From positions 1 to 64,000 of IMG/VR virus record IMGVR_UViG_2595698914_000001: a DNA stretch of 64,000 bases. The stretch is one strand, 5' to 3'. Source of the DNA: a virus (taxonomy: Duplodnaviria > Caudoviricetes). This document shows positions 2 to 59,973 of the stretch, piece by piece. Made by a program: the position numbers and the translations under genes. How positions within the stretch are numbered: the stretch's first letter is position 1; each line of letters begins with the position of its first letter. Under the pieces are notes generated by a model. It made no database searches, was not told the DNA's origin, and saw only the letters and a program-made list of their open reading frames with translations.

Positions 2-769
2 TTTACTGGTAACAATAAACGTCTACGTGTATTAGGTAAGTTAAGTGCGGAAGACCGTTACAACGTTATGATTCTTAAAGAACCTAATGCTTACATGGAA
101 GGTGTATTTAAATATCAACGTGAAGTATGTAAGGGTCTTTATAGTACAGAGCAGATGGTAGCGTATCGACGTCGTGAACTATTTAGTCCGGGTACTAGTA
201 ACTATATCGACGATGGTAACTTTGATGTATTAGGTCATAGTATCCATGGGGATATCTTTACTTTGAATTGTCCACGTAAAGACTTGAGTTATGTATTTAA
301 TCCACCACGTTTGGCTTTTAAGATTAAGCGTGAGTTAGAACAGAATCAGACTAGACTACTTGCACACATCCACGGTAAAGCAGAATCATCTAATATGGCT
401 GTTACTGACTTAACTGATGTATTCTACTACGATGATGGTGGTAAGTTAAAACTAAATTCTGAATTCACTAGTAAAACTAAATTCTTTAAACTAGATAATG
501 TTAAATTACCTGAAACTGATAAAGTTATCAGCATTAAAGCACTAGTTAAGTATGACTTACCTGAGCGTAACTTCTTAAACAAACTAGTTAAAGATAATCC
601 TAAAGTAGAATTACTTACATGGATGATTGACCAGTATACGGTTAGTTACGCGTTTGTGATTACTACAGATGAAGGTTGGTTATTTTATCATGCACAATAT
701 GGTAGTCGTTTCTTACTACGTGGTGCATCAGCAGCGGCAAGGAAAGAATTAAATGCCCTTAAATCTTAA
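2..769 (+). CDS. 5'-truncated CDS; probable C-terminal part of a phiKZ gp155-like RNase H-domain protein
   Basis: Frame is open from the window edge (FTGNNKRLRVLGKLSAEDRYNVMILKEP...). The GK...V.LKEP and PPRLA pattern recalls phiKZ-like RNase H C-terminal regions. The catalytic domain is not in the window. Confidence 0.45.
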   Translation, partial: FTGNNKRLRVLGKLSAEDRYNVMILKEPNAYMEGVFKYQREVCKGLYSTEQMVAYRRRELFSPGTSNYIDDGNFDVLGHSIHGDIFTLNCPRKDLSYVFNPPRLAFKIKRELEQNQTRLLAHIHGKAESSNMAVTDLTDVFYYDDGGKLKLNSEFTSKTKFFKLDNVKLPETDKVISIKALVKYDLPERNFLNKLVKDNPKVELLTWMIDQYTVSYAFVITTDEGWLFYHAQYGSRFLLRGASAAARKELNALKS

Positions 770-8992: not shown

Positions 8993-10312
8993 TTAGTCTT
9001 TAGAATGCGCTGAAAGAGATTTGTTAGCAAAATCTTTCTGCATTGTTGAAATCATCTTAGCTTGATTACAGAACTCAAGAGGTAATGTAATAAGTAGACG
9101 ACGACAAACTGAGAAGTATTCAGTAACAATCTTAACGCCTTCACGGTAAGCTGTACGCTTATCTGCTGATTCATCAGCATCAGGAGCATCTTTCTTCCAC
9201 TTGTCTAAAGCTTTAGAAGCTTTGTCGATTTTAGCTTCCGCTTTATCTAACGCTTTGTTACGCTTGATATTGATAAGAGAATCTAAAAGCTCGATGTTCG
9301 CATCAGCAATAACTTCGATAGTTGAAGCTGTAGCTAAGTCCATCTTAACTTTAGTTTTAGACTTTTGATCTTCTGTTAAGTCGCCAAAACCAAAACGGAA
9401 TGCTTTAAGACCTTCAAGACCAGAATACGCTTTATCACCTGCTTTACAGATATAGAAGCGAACACGACCAAGGAATGCTGCTGATTGCTTGCTACCGTCT
9501 TTTACGAATTTAACTGGAGCTTTATTTGAAACAGTTTCTTTGGCAATAACTTCAAGTTGATTAACTACAGCGCTAAGTTTCATTTCGTTTGTGAAAGAAA
9601 CACCAGACTTCATAGCACCAGCATCTGTAAGAAGAGCAGAAGGTTCAAGTTCAATAACATCGTAACCTAAAGTCTTTTCTTTGATGATTTCAGCTAGAGC
9701 TAAGTACTGACGAACGCCTTCAGCTAAATCGCCCGCAGCAACAACAGAATCTTCTTTAAAGAATGCATCAGAACCTTTTTCGAATTCATGCTTAGCGTTC
9801 TTTTCTAAAGAATGACCAGCTTGGTATTCTTTAGCAGATTCAAGGATTTTCATCCAAGATTTCTTAAGACGCTCAACATCGCCAAAGAACTTGTTAAAGT
9901 ACTTAGATACGAAAGTTTTAAATTCTTTCCACTTCTTCTGAATCCACTCAATCGCTTTGATTGCGTATTCTTTGATAGTAGAGAAAGCTTCAAGGCCAAC
10001 ATCAGAACCTTCAGATTCGATACCAGCTGTTTCTGAAACTGCTAGTTCTTCTGACATATCCATGTTAGCTAAAGCTTGAGCCATCATCACGCGAGCAAGC
10101 TTACGTGTAGAAGCGTCTTCAACACCAACCGCATCAAACGCAGCAGATACATCTAAAAGGTTTTCAAGGCGAGCACCAGCAGTATCTAAAGATTGACCGA
10201 TAGTTTGTAATTTTGATTGTACTTGTTCTGCAAGAGCACCTTCTGCATCGGCAGAAAGAACAGCAGCAACCGCTTGGTGAGATACACCAGTAATACCAGC
10301 TAAGATTGACAT
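8993..10312 (-). CDS. internal head/ejection protein (phiKZ gp93/95/97/162/163-type paralog family)
   Basis: Acidic propeptide ending VGLE|AF, then the amphipathic IKEYAIKAIEWIQKKWKEFKTFVSKYF helix typical of the family. Confidence 0.75.
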   Translation of the reverse strand: MSILAGITGVSHQAVAAVLSADAEGALAEQVQSKLQTIGQSLDTAGARLENLLDVSAAFDAVGVEDASTRKLARVMMAQALANMDMSEELAVSETAGIESEGSDVGLEAFSTIKEYAIKAIEWIQKKWKEFKTFVSKYFNKFFGDVERLKKSWMKILESAKEYQAGHSLEKNAKHEFEKGSDAFFKEDSVVAAGDLAEGVRQYLALAEIIKEKTLGYDVIELEPSALLTDAGAMKSGVSFTNEMKLSAVVNQLEVIAKETVSNKAPVKFVKDGSKQSAAFLGRVRFYICKAGDKAYSGLEGLKAFRFGFGDLTEDQKSKTKVKMDLATASTIEVIADANIELLDSLINIKRNKALDKAEAKIDKASKALDKWKKDAPDADESADKRTAYREGVKIVTEYFSVCRRLLITLPLEFCNQAKMISTMQKDFANKSLSAHSKD

Positions 10313-10390: not shown

Positions 10391-10401
10391 ACATAATACT
10401 T
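10391..10401 (-). promoter_or_regulatory. putative late promoter AAGTATTATGT
   Basis: TATG core of phiKZ late promoters; identical 11-mer at 46368 and 48854; precedes a virion gene. Confidence 0.6.
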
Positions 10402-26053: not shown

Positions 26054-26524
26054 ATGAATACATTATTAAATAAAATAGAAAACGGTAAAGTAATTGCAGA
26101 AACAACTCTTCCTGTTAAAGGTGAATTAATAGAATATGAAACGGGTATCTATGCTCATCGTCTAACTGCTAATGATAACGTCTTTATTCAAACACCAGAA
26201 GGTACATTCGTTAACGGTGAGTATGTAATTAGCTGTTCTGAACAATCACATATGGACGCTATAGCGTCTGTAGGTATTGTATATAAAGAAGTTGAGGATG
26301 GTATAATCTATACTAATGAAGGTGGTACTTATAGTCAACATATCTCATCTGATAGAAGTACCATCACGTGGGTAGTGGGTACAGCTAAGATTGTTATGAA
26401 TTTAAATAACGATAGATTCTATGTAACCGACGGTGAGTATGAAGTTAGTCATCTATTAACAGAACTTGCTATAATGACTAAGTTATACGGTCTCTGTAAT
26501 AAAGTTGTAGCAGGAGAACTATAA
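26054..26524 (+). CDS. hypothetical protein
   Basis: RBS AAGGGA. Confidence 0.7.
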   Translation: MNTLLNKIENGKVIAETTLPVKGELIEYETGIYAHRLTANDNVFIQTPEGTFVNGEYVISCSEQSHMDAIASVGIVYKEVEDGIIYTNEGGTYSQHISSDRSTITWVVGTAKIVMNLNNDRFYVTDGEYEVSHLLTELAIMTKLYGLCNKVVAGEL

Positions 26525-26916
26525 TGGCTAAGATAAGTAATACGGTTAACAAGTGTGGCCGATTAGATATAATCCATAATACTGACTCATCGGTAATGAT
26601 GCGTTGTAGTAATGCAGACTATAGTATTCAAATTGAGGAAGGTACGATAACCTTGGTCATTTGGGGAGCTAGTTATATTAAAGAAGATAAATTGACCTTA
26701 TCTAATTTAGTATCGTTCTTTGTGGAGTATGGTTTAACAATAGAATCACACCAGAAAGCAGATGAAGTTAAGTTCTTAAATGAACATTACATCCTTAAAG
26801 ACGATAACGGTCAGTCTATAACAGTTGGTGTCACCTCATCAGTAGATATTGAAATACTAAATAATGAGATAATGTTCTTACTAGAGGATACCAGTACGTT
26901 ATTCATAACCTACTAA
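26524..26916 (+). CDS. hypothetical protein
   Basis: TAATG coupling; RBS AGGAG. Confidence 0.7.
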   Translation: MAKISNTVNKCGRLDIIHNTDSSVMMRCSNADYSIQIEEGTITLVIWGASYIKEDKLTLSNLVSFFVEYGLTIESHQKADEVKFLNEHYILKDDNGQSITVGVTSSVDIEILNNEIMFLLEDTSTLFITY

Positions 26917-45124: not shown

Positions 45125-45674
45125 TGCGGCTCTGGCTACCACTGGTCCATTAGGTATAGCGGCTGCGGCAGCTATTAATGTATTTTTAGGGGAAGATGAT
45201 GCAGTTACTTCATCTGACTCAATAGATTCATTAGAAGCTAAGTTAGCGTCTCTACCTGAAGATAAACGTGCTCAAGTAATGCAGTCTTACTATAATTTCT
45301 TAGGCCGTCAGGTCGAAAGTAATAATGGTGTTATTATTAATAAGGACAGTGAGCTAACAGAGCAACTACGTATAATGGAGGAATCTGATAAACTGACTAA
45401 AGTTCGTCCAGATATAACTACACGAATGTCTTGGCTTATTATAGTTCTGACATCGTTAGTTACAGTTATGCATTGTATTGATGTATTCTGGAACGGTAAT
45501 TCTTTTGATGTTTATCTTATCGGTGCGCTTATGGCGTTACCTACGTGGGTAATTAAGAAGTATTTTGACCGAAGGACTGACGATAAAGCTATTAAGGCCA
45601 ATTTACTTAGTAATCAACAGATTGAAGTTCCCAAGAATATTGGGTCTAAAATCATCAACAAACTTATTAATTGA
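45090..45674 (+). CDS. holin-like membrane protein (GTA 3TM-holin-like)
   Basis: Amphipathic N-terminus, VRP, two TM helices, YF.RR..DK. Confidence 0.55.
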   Translation: MSFMASLGKVGSAALATTGPLGIAAAAAINVFLGEDDAVTSSDSIDSLEAKLASLPEDKRAQVMQSYYNFLGRQVESNNGVIINKDSELTEQLRIMEESDKLTKVRPDITTRMSWLIIVLTSLVTVMHCIDVFWNGNSFDVYLIGALMALPTWVIKKYFDRRTDDKAIKANLLSNQQIEVPKNIGSKIINKLIN

Positions 45675-45681
45675 GGCATCT

Positions 45682-46167
45682 ATGTTTAGTCAAACAATTA
45701 AGCGTATGCGTAACTATAATGAAGGTCGTGCTGATACCACTATTACTACCGATCTTCTTTGGTGTATTGTTACAACCGTATTAGCTGTGGTATTAGCGTT
45801 CTTTGTAAATCAACACATCGTGGCTGGCGGACAGCCTTTAATCACTGAGTTCTTTGCTGGTGTAATTCATGCCATCATGTACTTACAGGCACTTACCTTA
45901 ATGCTTCTTGCTTTAAGTTATCTATCCGCTACGATTAAAATGTACAGAGGTGTCATAATGACAGCTTTACCCATAGGTGTCTACATGGTAGTCTGGACGA
46001 TACAGCAACCAGAACCTGTAGCACTTATGTATAGTTATGGTGCAGTTATTTCTATATTAGGAATTGCTTTCTATAAGGTCACAGCATTAATTCGGTATCT
46101 ATTTGTAACCGTATGGTGTCCTTCTAGTATTCAGCCTAATAAGCACCGTCGTTGTACAGATCGTTAA
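45682..46167 (+). CDS. multi-pass membrane protein (start reassigned to 45682)
   Basis: GAGG RBS; four hydrophobic helices; C-terminal RRCTDR. Confidence 0.65.
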   Translation: MFSQTIKRMRNYNEGRADTTITTDLLWCIVTTVLAVVLAFFVNQHIVAGGQPLITEFFAGVIHAIMYLQALTLMLLALSYLSATIKMYRGVIMTALPIGVYMVVWTIQQPEPVALMYSYGAVISILGIAFYKVTALIRYLFVTVWCPSSIQPNKHRRCTDR

Positions 46168-46176
46168 TGAGATTAT

Positions 46177-46208
46177 ATAAGAGACTGGGGTAATTCCTAG
46201 TCTCTTAT
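46177..46208 (+). terminator. hairpin terminator
   Basis: ATAAGAGACTGGGG-TAA-TTCCTAGTCTCTTAT. Confidence 0.65.
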
Positions 46209-46236
46209 TGACCCGTTTAATTATTGTAAAATATAT

Positions 46237-46349
46237 GGATGGTAGGAGTATTAACCTTTTAGGCTAGACTCTAATCCACAACGGATAAGATGTATTAGGA
46301 GTAGTCGAAAGGCTACTTCTGATATGTTCCCTAAAACTTAACTTTTTTA
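46237..46349 (+). ncRNA. candidate small RNA A (two hairpins)
   Basis: Starts at the G of TATG; GGAT:ATCC / GAGT:ACTC stem, then a 17-bp G.U-rich GAAA-capped hairpin (46290-46327). Confidence 0.35.
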
Positions 46350-46376
46350 TTAATACAACCAACTATAAAGTATTAT

Positions 46377-46650
46377 GTAGGAAACTACACTCGACCGAGC
46401 GGACTGCCCTTTGACTAATCTTCAATACGCCGAAGAAACGATAGGGGAAAGAAAACAGGCTAGTAGGTTGAGTTCGTCGAGAAGGCTCGGTTATTGCGTC
46501 AACCAACACCCACATCCAAACCCATTAAACCTCATCCAACTTCACGGTTGGGTGGGGTGGGATTGAATGAGGACTCGCTTCTAAAGCATGGCAATAACAA
46601 AGAACTCTCGATGGGGGATTGGTAGAATAGGATGGAGGGGACTGGTCCCC
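46377..46650 (+). ncRNA. candidate structured RNA B (about 275 nt), possibly an origin-primer RNA
   Basis: AAGTATTATGT promoter; 5' GTAG-GAAA-CTAC hairpin; nested long-range stems with G.U pairs; GC-rich; no ORF. Confidence 0.55.
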
Positions 46651-46910
46651 TATATATATAATATATATATAATATAGATCAGATTTTAAAAAGATCAAAT
46701 TTAAGATCTAATGAAGTCGTAAATAAATTTACTCCACAGTTCATTAGAAACTTAAATATAAAATTAAACTCTGTTTTAACAGGAATGATCTAAATCTTTA
46801 AGAAGTCGCTATCACTCTTCGAGTTGCTCCCTAAATAAACCAAATAAAATTCCTGTTAATAGAATAAAAAAATTATAGATCCTTTTTCCTACGGAAGTAA
46901 GATCAAATAG
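46651..46910. other. AT-rich GATC cluster; candidate replication origin / unwinding element
   Basis: (TA)n tract, six GATC sites in about 230 bp, 11-bp inverted repeat, AAGATCAAAT direct repeat. Confidence 0.45.
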
Positions 46911-47030
46911 ATATAAATGGGTGGAATGCGGGCTGCGGCGGAGTTAATACGTATAGCTCTAATTGGTCCTGTATGGACTCATAATGATAGTTTACATCTT
47001 AGATGATAAAGTACTCAACTTAATAATATC

Positions 47031-48026
47031 ATGTCTTATAATAGCTTACAGGAAGAACTAGAGCATATGTTAAATTTAAAGAATGTCAACTCAAAGGTAT
47101 CATTGCTACCGTTAAAGGATTTATCTGTATTAGAACTAATGTTTCTACCAGAACACGATAATTACTTTAGGGTCAACTCAGACGAGTCTAGAAGGAAACA
47201 GGTAGATTATATGGAATTCTTAGTTAAAGCCTCTAAGAATAGATTAGCGTGTGAAATTAGACTAGGTAATAACTTAGTTGGATTTATAATGGTCGCAGGT
47301 AAAGATAATAGACTGGTGGGCGGTATATTCCCAGAGTTCAAAAGACAAGGTATCTATAGTCTAGCTAGAAACGCTGTAATTAACTTATTAAACTCAGTTG
47401 GAATCTATAACATAGTTTACTCTATAGACAAGAGTAACGATACGATGGCTAAGTTTGCTAGTGATCAATACAGTACAAATCTAGATGGTAACTTGAGAGT
47501 AGTTCATTACCAACCAAATAAACCATCCGCGTATATTAGTCCTAAAGTTAAACTAGGTAATAAGTTTGGGGCCTATGAAGGTGAATTATATCATCTTAGT
47601 TTTAATAGTAAATTAAAGACTTTAACCCCTAGACTTCCTGAGGGCGATTCTAAGGACGGTAAGTTCAGTGAACCATTAATCCCTAGAGTTTCTATGTCGC
47701 CGTCTCCTGAGTTATGTTTCAGAGCCATCTACGCTAATATAAATAACTTACTAGAAGACTCAGATGAACCCGAGATAACATTTACTCTTTACAGGGCTAA
47801 GAAGTATAATTCTAAGAAGTTACATACTCCAGATGAGTTAATATCTAAAGGATGGGTACATGACGCTCATATCACCCTAGAGCATTTCTCAACTGATGAT
47901 GTGGAACTTGAAGTGATAGAACAGATTACATTTAAAAATACAAGTGATGATATAGGTTTATTTTACCAACCATTTACAAAAGGCGATAACTTATATCATT
48001 CACCATTATCAATTATTAAAGTATAG
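47031..48026 (+). CDS. GNAT acetyltransferase domain fused to an ADP-ribosyltransferase-like domain
   Basis: GIFPEFKRQGIYS (GNAT motif A); C-terminal LYHLS...PRVSMSPS...EHF. Confidence 0.55.
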   Translation: MSYNSLQEELEHMLNLKNVNSKVSLLPLKDLSVLELMFLPEHDNYFRVNSDESRRKQVDYMEFLVKASKNRLACEIRLGNNLVGFIMVAGKDNRLVGGIFPEFKRQGIYSLARNAVINLLNSVGIYNIVYSIDKSNDTMAKFASDQYSTNLDGNLRVVHYQPNKPSAYISPKVKLGNKFGAYEGELYHLSFNSKLKTLTPRLPEGDSKDGKFSEPLIPRVSMSPSPELCFRAIYANINNLLEDSDEPEITFTLYRAKKYNSKKLHTPDELISKGWVHDAHITLEHFSTDDVELEVIEQITFKNTSDDIGLFYQPFTKGDNLYHSPLSIIKV

Positions 48027-48425: not shown

Positions 48426-48449
48426 GTACTCTAAACTAACTTAGATAGA

Positions 48450-48835
48450 AGCGCGTTGATAACGCATCAAAAAAATACACGTTAGATTTATCGTGTAGGT
48501 GTTGAAAGATACACCAAACCGAGACCCCTCGCTAATTGTCCATTACGACAAATTAATTTTGCCTTCGCAATCAAGATTAATGAGGGGTACTCACCAATTA
48601 CACTAAGTGAGTATTTTATTAAGTATTCAGTTCGGGTATAGCGATAGAGAGAATAATAATGAAAGTTAGACTATTACTTCATTTGAGTGTAAACGTTACT
48701 CGTAAGAGATAATCCCGATGAGCTACTCTAAAAGCCTTGCACAGCGACTCTTTATGATTGAGTAGTGGCGACATCATATATAAATATCATAGGGTTAAGT
48801 TATTAATTTAAATATTAGAATTTAACTCTATGCTA
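48450..48835 (+). ncRNA. candidate structured RNA C / long structured 3' UTR
   Basis: About ten consecutive or nested stems including a multibranch domain; no ORF. Confidence 0.5.
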
Positions 48836-48862
48836 TTTCCGTAGTATATTAATAAGTATTAT

Positions 48863-48969
48863 GTGTTTTTTGGTTTCCCAACCAGTTAGGTTTTACTTCC
48901 AATTTTCCCTAACGTTAAACACTTCTCCTTGTTGAGTTTAAGGTCCAGTCTTCGGGCTGGACCTCTTTT
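48863..48969 (+). ncRNA. candidate sRNA D with anti-SD loops
   Basis: AAGTATTATGT promoter; three-way junction; TCCC, CTTCC and TTCTCCTT exposed; own TTCG terminator. Confidence 0.6.
48941..48969 (+). terminator. rho-independent terminator
   Basis: AGGTCCAGTC-TTCG-GGCTGGACCT-CTTTT. Confidence 0.85.

Positions 48970-58371: not shown

Positions 58372-59973
<1,602 letters not shown>

What the first reader, a model, noticed from the sequence alone, without database searches (positions are those of the whole stretch)
46368..46650. GC-rich ~275-nt rod/branched RNA candidate running into an AT-rich tract
Seen: AAGTATTATGT, with the +1 G (46377) opening GTAG-GAAA-CTAC. Nested long-range helices follow: GGACTG:TGGTCC (46401/46643), CCCTTT:GGAGGG (46407/46634), ACTAATCTTC:GGGGATTGGT (46414/46614), GAGTTC:GAACTC (46470/46602), GTTATTGC:GCAATAAC (46490/46591), and apical CCTCATCCAAC:GTTGGGTGGGG (46530/46547). 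CCGAGC:GCTCGG (46395/46485) would form a pseudoknot or alternative fold. Many G.U pairs indicate the + strand folds. The G-rich 3' half has no U-tract terminator and abuts (TA)n. Established: ColE1 RNAII and T4 origins use a promoter-driven transcript that forms an R-loop to prime replication. Inference: an origin-primer RNA or a novel ncRNA; a putative RNase H gene lies at the start of this window.
Basis: partly seen in the sequence, partly recalled or inferred. Interest (0 to 1): 0.72.

Follow-up and report, generated by a model that had tools for sequence, protein, structure and literature searches.

The report
Conserved structured RNA in jumbo phage
A gene-free stretch of a marine phiKZ-like giant phage holds a ~275-base, GC-rich, strongly folding element with a phage late-type promoter that stays identical between strains whose neighbouring genes differ by 4-12%, so it is most likely an undescribed phage RNA gene whose job is unknown.

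Summary
The element (46364-46650) lies in the largest gene-free gap of a 167-kb PhuZ-encoding, phiKZ-type jumbo-phage contig and is the most GC-rich 250-nt stretch of that contig. The + strand folds better than shuffles (z -3.0; core hairpin 46475-46613 z -5.45). The - strand does not (z -1.2).

New evidence:
- In metagenome contigs the block 46364-46638 has 0 differences (0/275, 0/206), while the flanking genes in the same runs differ by 4-12%.
- The block starts at TAnAAGTATTATG, a phiKZ late-promoter-type TATG motif (G = +1 at 46377) that recurs upstream of other genes.

No Rfam family, tRNA, homologue or covariation could be obtained, and expression is untested.

Downstream lie a (TA)n tract and 6 of the contig's 60 GATC sites, in a genome where GATC is depleted about 9-fold.

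Best reading: a stand-alone late ncRNA of a new family (0.45). The origin-primer idea is neither supported nor excluded (about 0.13). It gains context because chimalliviruses lack a primase.

The parts
45565..46167 (+). upstream gene (hydrophobic, no family match); diverged 8-12% between strains
   Evidence: ORF. No Pfam, PHROG or NCBIfam match. Of the 40 listed variant places, 21 fall on third codon positions (P 0.0096).
46177..46208 (+). terminator-type hairpin of the upstream gene
   Evidence: -19.9 kcal/mol, z -5.4
46289..46328 (+). 18-bp hairpin with GAAA loop, upstream of the conserved block (second terminator or separate small structure)
   Evidence: -22 kcal/mol, z -6.5, 0 of 200 shuffles. 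The window 46228-46377 gives + strand z -3.6 against - strand z 0.0.
46364..46377 (+). promoter-like motif TAnAAGTATTATG; G at 46377 is the proposed +1 (phiKZ late type)
   Evidence: The same 10-11-mer is at 48854 (+) and 10392 (-) upstream of genes. 8 of 16 TATTATGT copies lie in the 6.3% noncoding fraction. phiKZ late promoter is TATG with G = +1 (PMC4666361, passages read).
46364..46638 (+). block invariant between strains
   Evidence: The X9 contig is exactly 46364-46638 with 0 of 275 differences. The X7 contig 46414-46619 has 0 of 206. The X6 contig links the block to the diverged upstream gene. Fisher P 1.8e-7 and 2e-8.
46377..46388 (+). 5' hairpin GUAG-GAAA-CUAC
46389..46474 (+). domain I (branched, closed by an 8-bp helix)
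   Evidence: Minimum-energy fold (z -2.5 for 46377-46474)
46475..46613 (+). domain II: long imperfect hairpin with a C/A-rich 5' arm and a G/U-rich 3' arm
   Evidence: -52 kcal/mol, z -5.45, 0 of 200 shuffles. Holds the two reader helices with pair probability near 1.
46611..46653 (+). 3' hairpin (13 bp with a 17-nt loop; alternative short hairpin 46636-46651), possible transcript end
   Evidence: -16.4 and -9.7 kcal/mol. Followed by UAUAUA, like the tails of this phage's gene-end hairpins. Not a canonical terminator.
46651..46676 (.). (TA)n tract, easily melted; metagenome contigs break here
46677..46904 (.). cluster of 6 GATC sites in (A/T)(A/G)GATC words, with short direct and inverted repeats
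   Evidence: Sites at 46677, 46693, 46705, 46787, 46878 and 46901. Repeats. Genome-wide GATC observed/expected 0.11.
47031..48026 (+). downstream gene: N-terminal GNAT-fold domain plus PHROG 10766 domain (true start may be the ATG at 47067)

Best explanation
The element is a stand-alone gene for a structured non-coding RNA of about 275 nt, in a marine, PhuZ-encoding, phiKZ-type (chimallivirus-like) jumbo phage.

Proposed mechanism:
1. The phage's own non-virion RNA polymerase starts at the G of TATTATG (46377). This step is inferred.
2. The RNA folds into a 5' GAAA hairpin, a branched domain I and a very stable long hairpin (domain II). This is predicted, not proven.
3. The RNA ends at or just after the 3' hairpin in front of the (UA)n run. 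This step is inferred.
4. It acts in trans as a protein-binding or scaffold/decoy RNA late in infection, not by pairing with phage mRNAs. This step is a guess; only its negative part was tested.

The sequence is under very strong purifying selection over its whole length. That part is shown.
For: Non-coding setting:
- It lies in the largest gap of my crude ORF map (863 bp, the largest of 9 gaps of 200 bp or more).
- The gap holds only 32-57-aa ORFs.

Composition:
- It is the highest-GC 250-nt window of the 167-kb contig, about 3.9 sd above the mean. In an AT-rich genome this is a classic sign of structured RNA (recalled principle).

Strand-specific structure:
- + strand z is -3.0 and - strand z is -1.2.
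- Domain II has z -5.45.
- 10 of the 83 predicted pairs are G.U.

Conservation:
- X9: 0 of 275 differences in the block, against 40/497 and 15/357 in the flanking genes.
- X7: 0 of 206, against 26/221.
- Fisher P is 1.8e-7 and 2e-8.
- 21 of the 40 listed differences in the upstream gene are at third codon positions. Near-neutral divergence is therefore about 12%, and the block should carry tens of changes if it were unconstrained.
- The X6 contig joins the block physically to the diverged gene.

Promoter:
- The block begins exactly at TAnAAGTATTATG.
- The 10-mer AAGTATTATG recurs at 48854 (+) and 10392 (-).
- 8 of 16 TATTATGT copies lie in the 6.3% noncoding fraction. Five of them point at a gene 35-80 nt downstream, including the terminase gene.
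- The phiKZ late promoter is TATG with the G as +1 (PMC4666361, passages).
- The contig encodes six phiKZ-type split RNAP beta-family proteins and PhuZ.

The 3' end resembles the local style of terminator tail.

No antisense match of 14 nt or more to the rest of the contig exists. There is one 13-mer, about what chance gives.
Against: - No transcript evidence of any kind.
- No homologue outside near-identical strains, so there is no covariation and the fold is purely thermodynamic.
- Domain I alone is only marginal (z -2.5).
- The 3' hairpin is weak (-9.7 to -16.4 kcal/mol against -12 to -26 for most gene-end hairpins), and the canonical terminator scan finds nothing. Read-through into the downstream gene is therefore possible.
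- TATG alone is not enriched in noncoding DNA (83 of 1587 copies, 5.2%). The 8-mer was chosen after seeing this site. AT-rich words are expected to be commoner in AT-rich spacers.
- The neighbouring intergenic DNA is also less diverged than the genes (X7 46727-46889: 1 change and 1 gap in 163; X6 46756-47069: 8 changes and 1 gap in 314). Part of the conservation could reflect a recently exchanged tract or DNA-level function.
- Both contigs that reach the 3' side stop at 46638. The last 12 nt of the proposed 3' hairpin are not shown to be conserved.
Confidence: 0.45

Rival explanations
1. Origin-primer RNA. The transcript from 46377 forms a persistent RNA-DNA hybrid through its G-rich 3' part at the (TA)n tract. 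It is then trimmed by the phage RNase H-clamp protein and primes DNA synthesis. The GATC words downstream belong to the origin.
For: Layout: promoter, then a G-rich non-template strand (GC skew +0.46 at 46550-46649, +0.39 at 46600-46699), then 26 bp of (TA)n, then a GATC cluster that is extreme for this genome (6 of 60 sites in 225 bp).

The downstream spacer is also conserved.

Chimalliviruses have no recognisable primase. The authors of a 2026 preprint speculate that RNA-DNA hybrids could provide initiation sites (PMC13648698, passages read).

The 2025 Annual Review text holds none of 'origin of replication', 'replication origin', 'primase', 'pac site' or 'headful', so the question appears open.

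ColE1 RNA II, T4 oriF/oriG and mitochondrial CSBII are recalled precedents.
Against: - No GC-skew turn near 46 kb; cumulative skew rises steadily along the contig. This is a weak test for a phage.
- The neighbours are virion, lysis and tail-fibre genes, not replication genes. DnaB, the polymerases and the helicase lie elsewhere.
- The main G-runs (46550-46561) are predicted to be paired in a -52 kcal/mol hairpin.
- The promoter is of the late type.
- Invariance across all 275 nt is more than a hybrid-forming 3' end would need.
- Nothing here measures a hybrid or an initiation site.
Confidence: 0.13
2. A cis-acting leader. The structured element is the 5' part of a long mRNA for the downstream GNAT-like gene (47031/47067) and its followers. 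It acts as a regulatory or stabilising leader, perhaps after processing.
For: - It has the same strand as the downstream genes.
- The 3' hairpin is weak and non-canonical.
- No second TATTATGT-type motif lies between 46650 and 47031; only plain TATG at 46975 (+).
- 5'UTR-derived small RNAs are the commonest kind reported in phage 201phi2-1: 8 of 11 (PMC11512511, passages).
Against: - About 380 nt of AT-rich DNA with its own repeats separates the element from the start codon.
- No Rfam riboswitch or leader family matches.
- In run X9 the block assembled as its own 275-nt contig.
- The block is far more conserved than the gene it would regulate.
Confidence: 0.15
3. A DNA-level site. The region 46364-46900 is read as DNA, as a packaging start (pac), an origin or a protein landing pad, and the RNA fold is incidental.
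For: - The GATC cluster sits in a GATC-purged genome (observed/expected 0.11; the next-lowest 4-mer palindrome is 0.70).
- The GATC sites lie in hexamer-like words, which recalls the P1 pac site: seven TGATCA/G hexamers that are Dam sites (10.1101/2022.09.02.506314, one passage).
- The whole spacer is less diverged than the genes.
- Earlier notes of this scan often tied GATC clusters to pac sites (leads only).
Against: - The fold signal is strand-specific with 10 G.U pairs, which DNA recognition would not need.
- The invariant block stops before the GATC cluster, and the cluster itself shows some changes.
- GATC spacings of 16, 12, 82, 91 and 23 bp are not helically phased.
- No Dam-type methylase is in the 61%-complete contig.
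- The terminase gene is 68 kb away.
Confidence: 0.12
4. No function: a chance GC-rich spacer, conserved only because a recent recombination tract swept through these strains.
For: - Phage spacers are common recombination joints (recalled).
- Only three laid runs inform the block, at depth 2-9.
- The flanking spacer is also low in differences.
Against: - The extreme GC rank, the strand-specific fold, the promoter motif at the exact left edge and zero differences in two runs from different studies would all have to coincide.
Confidence: 0.05

Closest known systems
Small RNAs mapped in phiKZ-like phages (201phi2-1 sRNA001-011; the sRNA upstream of phiKZ gp182 and its homologues)
   Same: Short transcription units in giant phages with the family's own promoters and hairpin terminators. 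One is conserved across genera and has a predicted common fold (PMC11512511, passages read).
   Different: Those were filtered to under 250 bp, and 8 of 11 are 5'UTR-derived. The conserved one lies upstream of a tail gene. The present element is about 275 nt and the GC maximum of its contig. It has no detectable sequence relative in 50,697 phage records. The published sRNA sequences themselves were not compared here.
R-loop origins: ColE1 RNA II, T4 oriF/oriG, mitochondrial CSBII (recalled, not from a call)
   Same: A promoter-driven transcript with a G-rich part running into an easily melted AT-rich tract. ColE1 RNA II also needs a defined fold.
   Different: No hybrid, RNase H cut or DNA start has been shown here. 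No antisense regulator was found: no TATG on the - strand between 46378 and 46975. The promoter is of the late type and the neighbours are structural genes.
Phage P1 pac site
   Same: Several GATC-containing hexamers within about 160-230 bp (P1: seven TGATCA/G in 161 bp).
   Different: This concerns the flank 46677-46904, not the RNA block. The words here are (A/T)(A/G)GATC(A/T/C) and lie in a spacer, not in a pacase gene. No Dam gene was found. Cleavage is untested.
Large stand-alone structured phage/bacterial ncRNAs in Rfam (6S, GOLLD, ROOL, HEARO, tmRNA, CsrB-type sponges)
   Same: Similar size range, GC-rich in an AT-rich genome, multi-helix fold.
   Different: None matches. There were 0 matches at gathering scores over the 64-kb window. 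The 5 sub-threshold matches in 46100-47100 have E 1.5-8.9 and score 11.5-22 bits against gathering scores of 38-76. GGA words are not enriched (9 against 6.0 +/- 2.1, P 0.115). No tmRNA or tRNA was found.

Membership tests
Any Rfam 15 family | Covariance-model score at or above the family's gathering score | tested here: not met
   0 matches in the whole window. The best sub-threshold match inside the block is sR48 on the - strand, at 18.9 bits against a gathering score of 40.
phiKZ-type late (nvRNAP) promoter | 5'-TATG-3' with the G as transcription start | tested here: met
   TATG at 46374-46377; definition from PMC4666361. [quoted passage not shown]
phiKZ-type late (nvRNAP) promoter | The motif recurs upstream of late genes of the same phage | tested here: met
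   8 of 16 TATTATGT copies are in noncoding DNA. 5 point at nearby genes, including the terminase large subunit. Plain TATG is not enriched.
phiKZ-type late (nvRNAP) promoter | Transcription by the phage polymerase from this site | not testable with these tools
   No RNA data. RNAP beta-family genes are present.
Intrinsic terminator | GC-rich hairpin followed by a U-tract | tested here: not met
   0 sites in 45900-47200. The tail is (UA)n. This phage's own gene-end hairpins often lack a U-run too.
R-loop replication origin (ColE1 / T4 oriF type) | Promoter upstream of an unwinding element | tested here: met
   TATG motif at 46374-46377 and (TA)n at 46651-46676. This is sequence layout only.
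R-loop replication origin (ColE1 / T4 oriF type) | Persistent RNA-DNA hybrid, and DNA synthesis starting at its 3' end | not testable with these tools
   Needs DRIP, RNase H sensitivity and junction mapping.
R-loop replication origin (ColE1 / T4 oriF type) | Replication-related asymmetry at the site | tested here: not met
   Cumulative GC skew shows no turn near 46 kb. This is a weak test on a 61%-complete phage contig.
CsrB/RsmZ-type protein sponge | Many GGA words, mostly in hairpin loops | tested here: not met
   9 GGA against 6.0 +/- 2.1 in shuffles (P 0.115). Most lie in predicted stems.
P1-type pac site (flank 46677-46904) | Cluster of GATC-containing hexamers | tested here: met
   6 GATC in 225 bp against 0.36 per kb genome-wide.
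P1-type pac site (flank 46677-46904) | Dam methylation and terminase cleavage at the site | tested here: inconclusive
   No Dam-family gene is in the contig, but the contig is 61% complete and the host may supply one. Cleavage is not testable.
Chimalliviridae-like phage (context) | PhuZ tubulin, two sets of split multisubunit RNAP genes, split DNA polymerase, DnaB-like helicase | tested here: met
   PHROG matches (PhuZ E 2e-91). Chimallin itself was not looked for by name.

The most novel reading that the evidence does not exclude
The block, the (TA)n tract and the GATC cluster together form the replication start (or the packaging start) of a nucleus-forming-type jumbo phage, with an RNA arm. 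A late-polymerase transcript would form a persistent hybrid at the (TA)n tract through its G-rich 3' end. The phage RNase H-clamp protein would trim it to prime DNA synthesis. This phage family has no primase and no mapped origin.
Probability: 0.12. Interest if true: 0.9.

Novelty: new member of a known kind. Interest (0 to 1): 0.55.

Why it matters
Giant nucleus-forming phages separate transcription from translation, and little is known about their non-coding RNAs. The phiKZ early-infection study predicted only one 75-nt sRNA and could not confirm it by northern blot.

An RNA-sized block that stays letter-perfect while neighbouring genes drift by 4-12% marks something this lineage cannot change. 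It is a concrete target for knock-down or deletion.

The locus is also a rare, testable candidate for how these phages start replication. It has a promoter, a G-rich transcript, a melting tract and a cluster of otherwise avoided GATC sites. The family lacks a primase, and RNA-DNA hybrids have been proposed as initiation sites.

Tried and rejected
Known RNA classes:
- Rfam at gathering and at E up to 10: nothing credible.
- tRNA and tmRNA: none in the window or the contig.

Homologue hunt, all negative:
- blastn 'distant' against 50,697 phage records with 863 bp: no match. With 287 bp at E up to 10: 2 matches of 27-31 nt at E 0.9 and 3.
- Two exact 20-mers in IMG/VR: 0 and 0.
- One 20-mer in 185,579 genomes: 2 hits (an Opitutaceae MAG and Devosia). 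About 1 is expected by chance, and the covariance model found nothing else there.
- Flank-protein scans of IMG/VR with single proteins: 0 relatives each.
- Alignment scans gave only distant C-terminal-domain relatives (5 loci; 2 short JGI loci).
- Covariance model R1 on 3 IMG/VR records, on Vibrio phage BONAISHI and on 10 loci gave only generic hairpin matches to model positions 163-195, on both strands.
- BONAISHI keeps the upstream gene order but has no such gap.
- The 41-60% identical homologues of the downstream protein (P0002-P0008) lie only in Logan/ENA contigs, which I could not fetch.

Expression: no RNA holder was listed.

Parts of the stretch without cover in X2, X7 and X9 are not used as evidence.

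Function tests:
- CsrA-sponge idea rejected.
- Antisense-regulator idea: no match of 14 nt or more in the contig.
- Small ORFs inside the block (43-57 aa) were seen by eye to lack ribosome-binding sites, and coding would not explain full invariance.
- GC skew gives no origin signal.
- No Dam gene.

Downstream protein: the model (pLDDT 83) shows a GNAT-type N-terminal domain (Foldseek E 2e-4, probability 1.0, TM 0.45-0.56 on the target). Nothing in it is RNA-specific.

Literature searches found no described ~280-nt ncRNA, origin or pac site of chimalliviruses. Supplementary tables of the transcriptome papers were not opened and may list more RNAs.

Full report
CONTEXT

The window is the first 64 kb of a 167,292-bp IMG/VR virus record, judged 61% complete. 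The contig carries the hallmark genes of phiKZ-like (chimallivirus-like) phages:
- PhuZ tubulin (PHROG 4733, E 2e-91)
- six phiKZ-type split RNA-polymerase beta-family proteins
- three proteins matching polymerase PHROGs
- a DnaB-like helicase
- a GroEL-like chaperonin
- the usual virion genes

Its proteins are only about 25-36% identical to those of any isolate. The DUF7208 protein matches 288 records and the RNAP beta protein 298 records, all below 60% identity. No close relative is in IMG/VR. Runs that hold the stretch are marine, oyster, mollusc, seawater and biofilm metagenomes.

THE OBSERVATION

All 7 helices consist only of Watson-Crick or G.U pairs.

The element lies in the largest gene-free gap of my crude ORF map: 46168-47030, 863 bp, the largest of 9 gaps of 200 bp or more. 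The gap holds only 32-57-aa ORFs. The window 46390-46639 is the most GC-rich 250 nt of the contig (0.492 against 0.354 +/- 0.035).

As RNA, the + strand of 46368-46650 folds to -92.4 kcal/mol, with z -3.0 and 1 of 200 shuffles as good. The - strand gives z -1.2. The signal is concentrated in 46475-46613 (-52 kcal/mol, z -5.45, 0 of 200). The stretch 46377-46474 is marginal (z -2.5). Ten of the 83 predicted pairs are G.U.

Only 2 of its 7 helices have pair probability near 1 and the other 5 are near 0. Enforcing the six nested helices costs 13.6 kcal/mol and brings the energy to the level of shuffled sequence. The favoured picture is:
- a 5' GAAA hairpin (46377-46388)
- domain I (46389-46474)
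- domain II (46475-46613)
- a 3' hairpin (46611-46653, or the short form 46636-46651)

None of this is backed by covariation.

CONSERVATION

I laid the contigs of four runs on 45565-48026.
- X9: the block 46364-46638 is a contig of exactly 275 nt with 0 differences. The gene pieces on either side have 40/497 and 15/357 differences.
- X7: 46414-46619 has 0/206, against 26/221 in the upstream gene.
- X6: one contig runs from the diverged upstream gene through to 46638 with 63 differences in all. X2 shows 55 differences in 45565-46180, and X2 and X6 share all 40 listed places. If they share the rest, about 8 X6 differences fall in 46181-46638. Their places were cut from the table.

Fisher tests give P 1.8e-7 (X9) and 2e-8 (X7). 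Of the 40 listed differences in the upstream ORF, 21 are at third codon positions (P 0.0096). That gene is therefore real, and the near-neutral divergence between these strains is about 12%. An unconstrained 275-nt block should carry tens of changes.

Three caveats apply:
- Depths are 2-9.
- The rest of the spacer is also less diverged than the genes (1 change and 1 gap in 163 nt; 8 changes and 1 gap in 314 nt).
- Both contigs that reach the right side stop at 46638, so the last 12 nt of the proposed 3' hairpin are not shown to be invariant.

PROMOTER AND ENDS

The invariant block begins at 46364, the first base of TATAAAGTATTATG.

The 10-mer AAGTATTATG occurs three times in the contig: here, at 48854 (+) upstream of the gene at 48929, and at 10392 (-) upstream of the gene 8993-10312.

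Of the 16 TATTATGT copies, 8 lie in the 6.3% of the contig that is noncoding:
- one overlaps a start codon
- five point at a gene 35-80 nt downstream, among them the terminase large subunit
- one is this site
- one points antisense

In phiKZ the late promoter is 5'-TATG-3' with the G as +1. It is necessary but not sufficient, and it is read by the non-virion RNAP (PMC4666361, passages read).

Two cautions. Plain TATG is not enriched in noncoding DNA (83 of 1587). I also picked the 8-mer after seeing the site.

At the 3' end the canonical terminator scan is empty. However, 80 of 170 ORF ends in this contig have a hairpin of -8 kcal/mol or better within 75 nt. Many of these are followed by TAT.../ATTTATG rather than a U-run, and several run directly into the next TATG motif. 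The UAUAUA... tail after the 3' hairpin fits that style, though the hairpin is weaker than most.

Upstream of the block lie the upstream gene's terminator hairpin (46177-46208) and a second, 18-bp GAAA-loop hairpin (46289-46328, z -6.5).

WHAT IT IS NOT
- No Rfam family.
- No tRNA or tmRNA.
- No GGA enrichment.
- No antisense target of 14 nt or more in the contig.
- No second copy in the contig.
- No relative in phage records, IMG/VR, representative genomes or the fetched loci.

THE FLANK

GATC is the one strongly avoided 4-mer palindrome in this genome. There are 60 sites against about 550 expected, observed/expected 0.11. The next lowest is 0.70. Six of the 60 sites lie in 46677-46901, straight after the (TA)n tract. 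The next-densest 300-bp window holds 3. They sit in (A/T)(A/G)GATC words. AAGATCAAAT occurs twice and TATAGATC twice, and there are perfect inverted repeats of 9 and 11 bp nearby. Spacing is not helically phased. No Dam gene is in the contig.

This resembles the GATC hexamers of the P1 pac site. From recall, it also resembles Dam-controlled origins.

MECHANISM AND ODDS

My odds for the readings are:
- 0.45: a stand-alone late ncRNA made by the phage polymerase, acting in trans through its structure
- 0.15: a leader of the downstream GNAT-like gene
- 0.13: an origin-primer transcript
- 0.12: a DNA-level pac/ori site with an incidental fold
- 0.05: no function
- the remainder is unassigned

What is shown: strand-specific fold potential, extreme GC, invariance, and a recurring promoter-type motif at the block's edge. 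What is inferred: transcription, the ends, and trans action.

The origin idea deserves to be kept alive. Chimalliviruses lack a recognisable primase and carry an RNase H-clamp protein in the replisome. The authors of that work speculate that RNA-DNA hybrids may provide initiation sites (PMC13648698, passages). The 2025 review text does not mention origins, primase or pac sites. Nothing I could compute measures a hybrid or a start of DNA synthesis.

The truncated ORF at 2-769 matches only the C-terminal 216 positions of PHROG 3265 'ribonuclease'. It may be the tail of that protein. This is a guess, and it does not bear on this locus.

NOVELTY

This is a candidate new family of phage ncRNA in a poorly sampled marine branch of phiKZ-like phages. 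It is a known kind of thing (phage-encoded ncRNA), but with no relative and unusually strong conservation. It sits next to an unusual GATC island.

Interest is 0.55. The element is real and worth an experiment, but it has no expression data, covariation or function.

Noticed in passing
window 46651-46904 and whole contig G000: GATC is about 9-fold depleted genome-wide (60 observed against about 550 expected; the only 4-mer palindrome below observed/expected 0.7). Even so, 6 sites cluster in 225 bp next to a (TA)n tract, and no Dam gene is in the contig.
   Followed up: partly
window 46289-46328: A perfect-looking 18-bp hairpin with a GAAA loop (-22 kcal/mol, z -6.5) lies between the upstream gene's terminator and the conserved block. 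It could be a second terminator or a separate small RNA element.
   Followed up: partly
window 48426-48928: A second large spacer (503 bp) carries the same AAGTATTATGT promoter-type word at 48854. It has strongly folding segments: 48486-48635 with z about -4 on both strands, and 48786-48928 with + strand z -4.3.
   Followed up: no
window 26918 (- strand): One TATTATGT copy sits right after a shared convergent terminator. It points antisense into the ORF 26524-26916, so it may be an antisense promoter, or that ORF may be miscalled.
   Followed up: no
G000 114120-116767 (L015:10120-12767): The 716-aa ORF matches terminase large-subunit profiles only in its first ~200 residues and is followed by an HNH-endonuclease ORF. 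This may be an intron, an intein or a split terminase.
   Followed up: no
window 47031-48026: The downstream protein has a GNAT-fold N-terminal domain (Foldseek E 2e-4) fused to a PHROG 10766 domain that one record (phiR1-37) annotates as a structural protein. Full-length homologues (41-60% identity) occur only in unannotated metagenome contigs.
   Followed up: partly
window 2-769: The contig starts inside an ORF matching the C-terminal 216 positions of PHROG 3265 'ribonuclease'. It may be the clamp-like tail of the chimallivirus RNase H-clamp protein.
   Followed up: partly
window 58387-59973; G000 91386-95539: There is a GroEL-like chaperonin gene (PHROG 5725, E 1.5e-160). There is also an RNA ligase gene (PHROG 548) near a PHROG 289 'GTP-binding domain' gene, which may be an RNA repair pair.
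   Followed up: no
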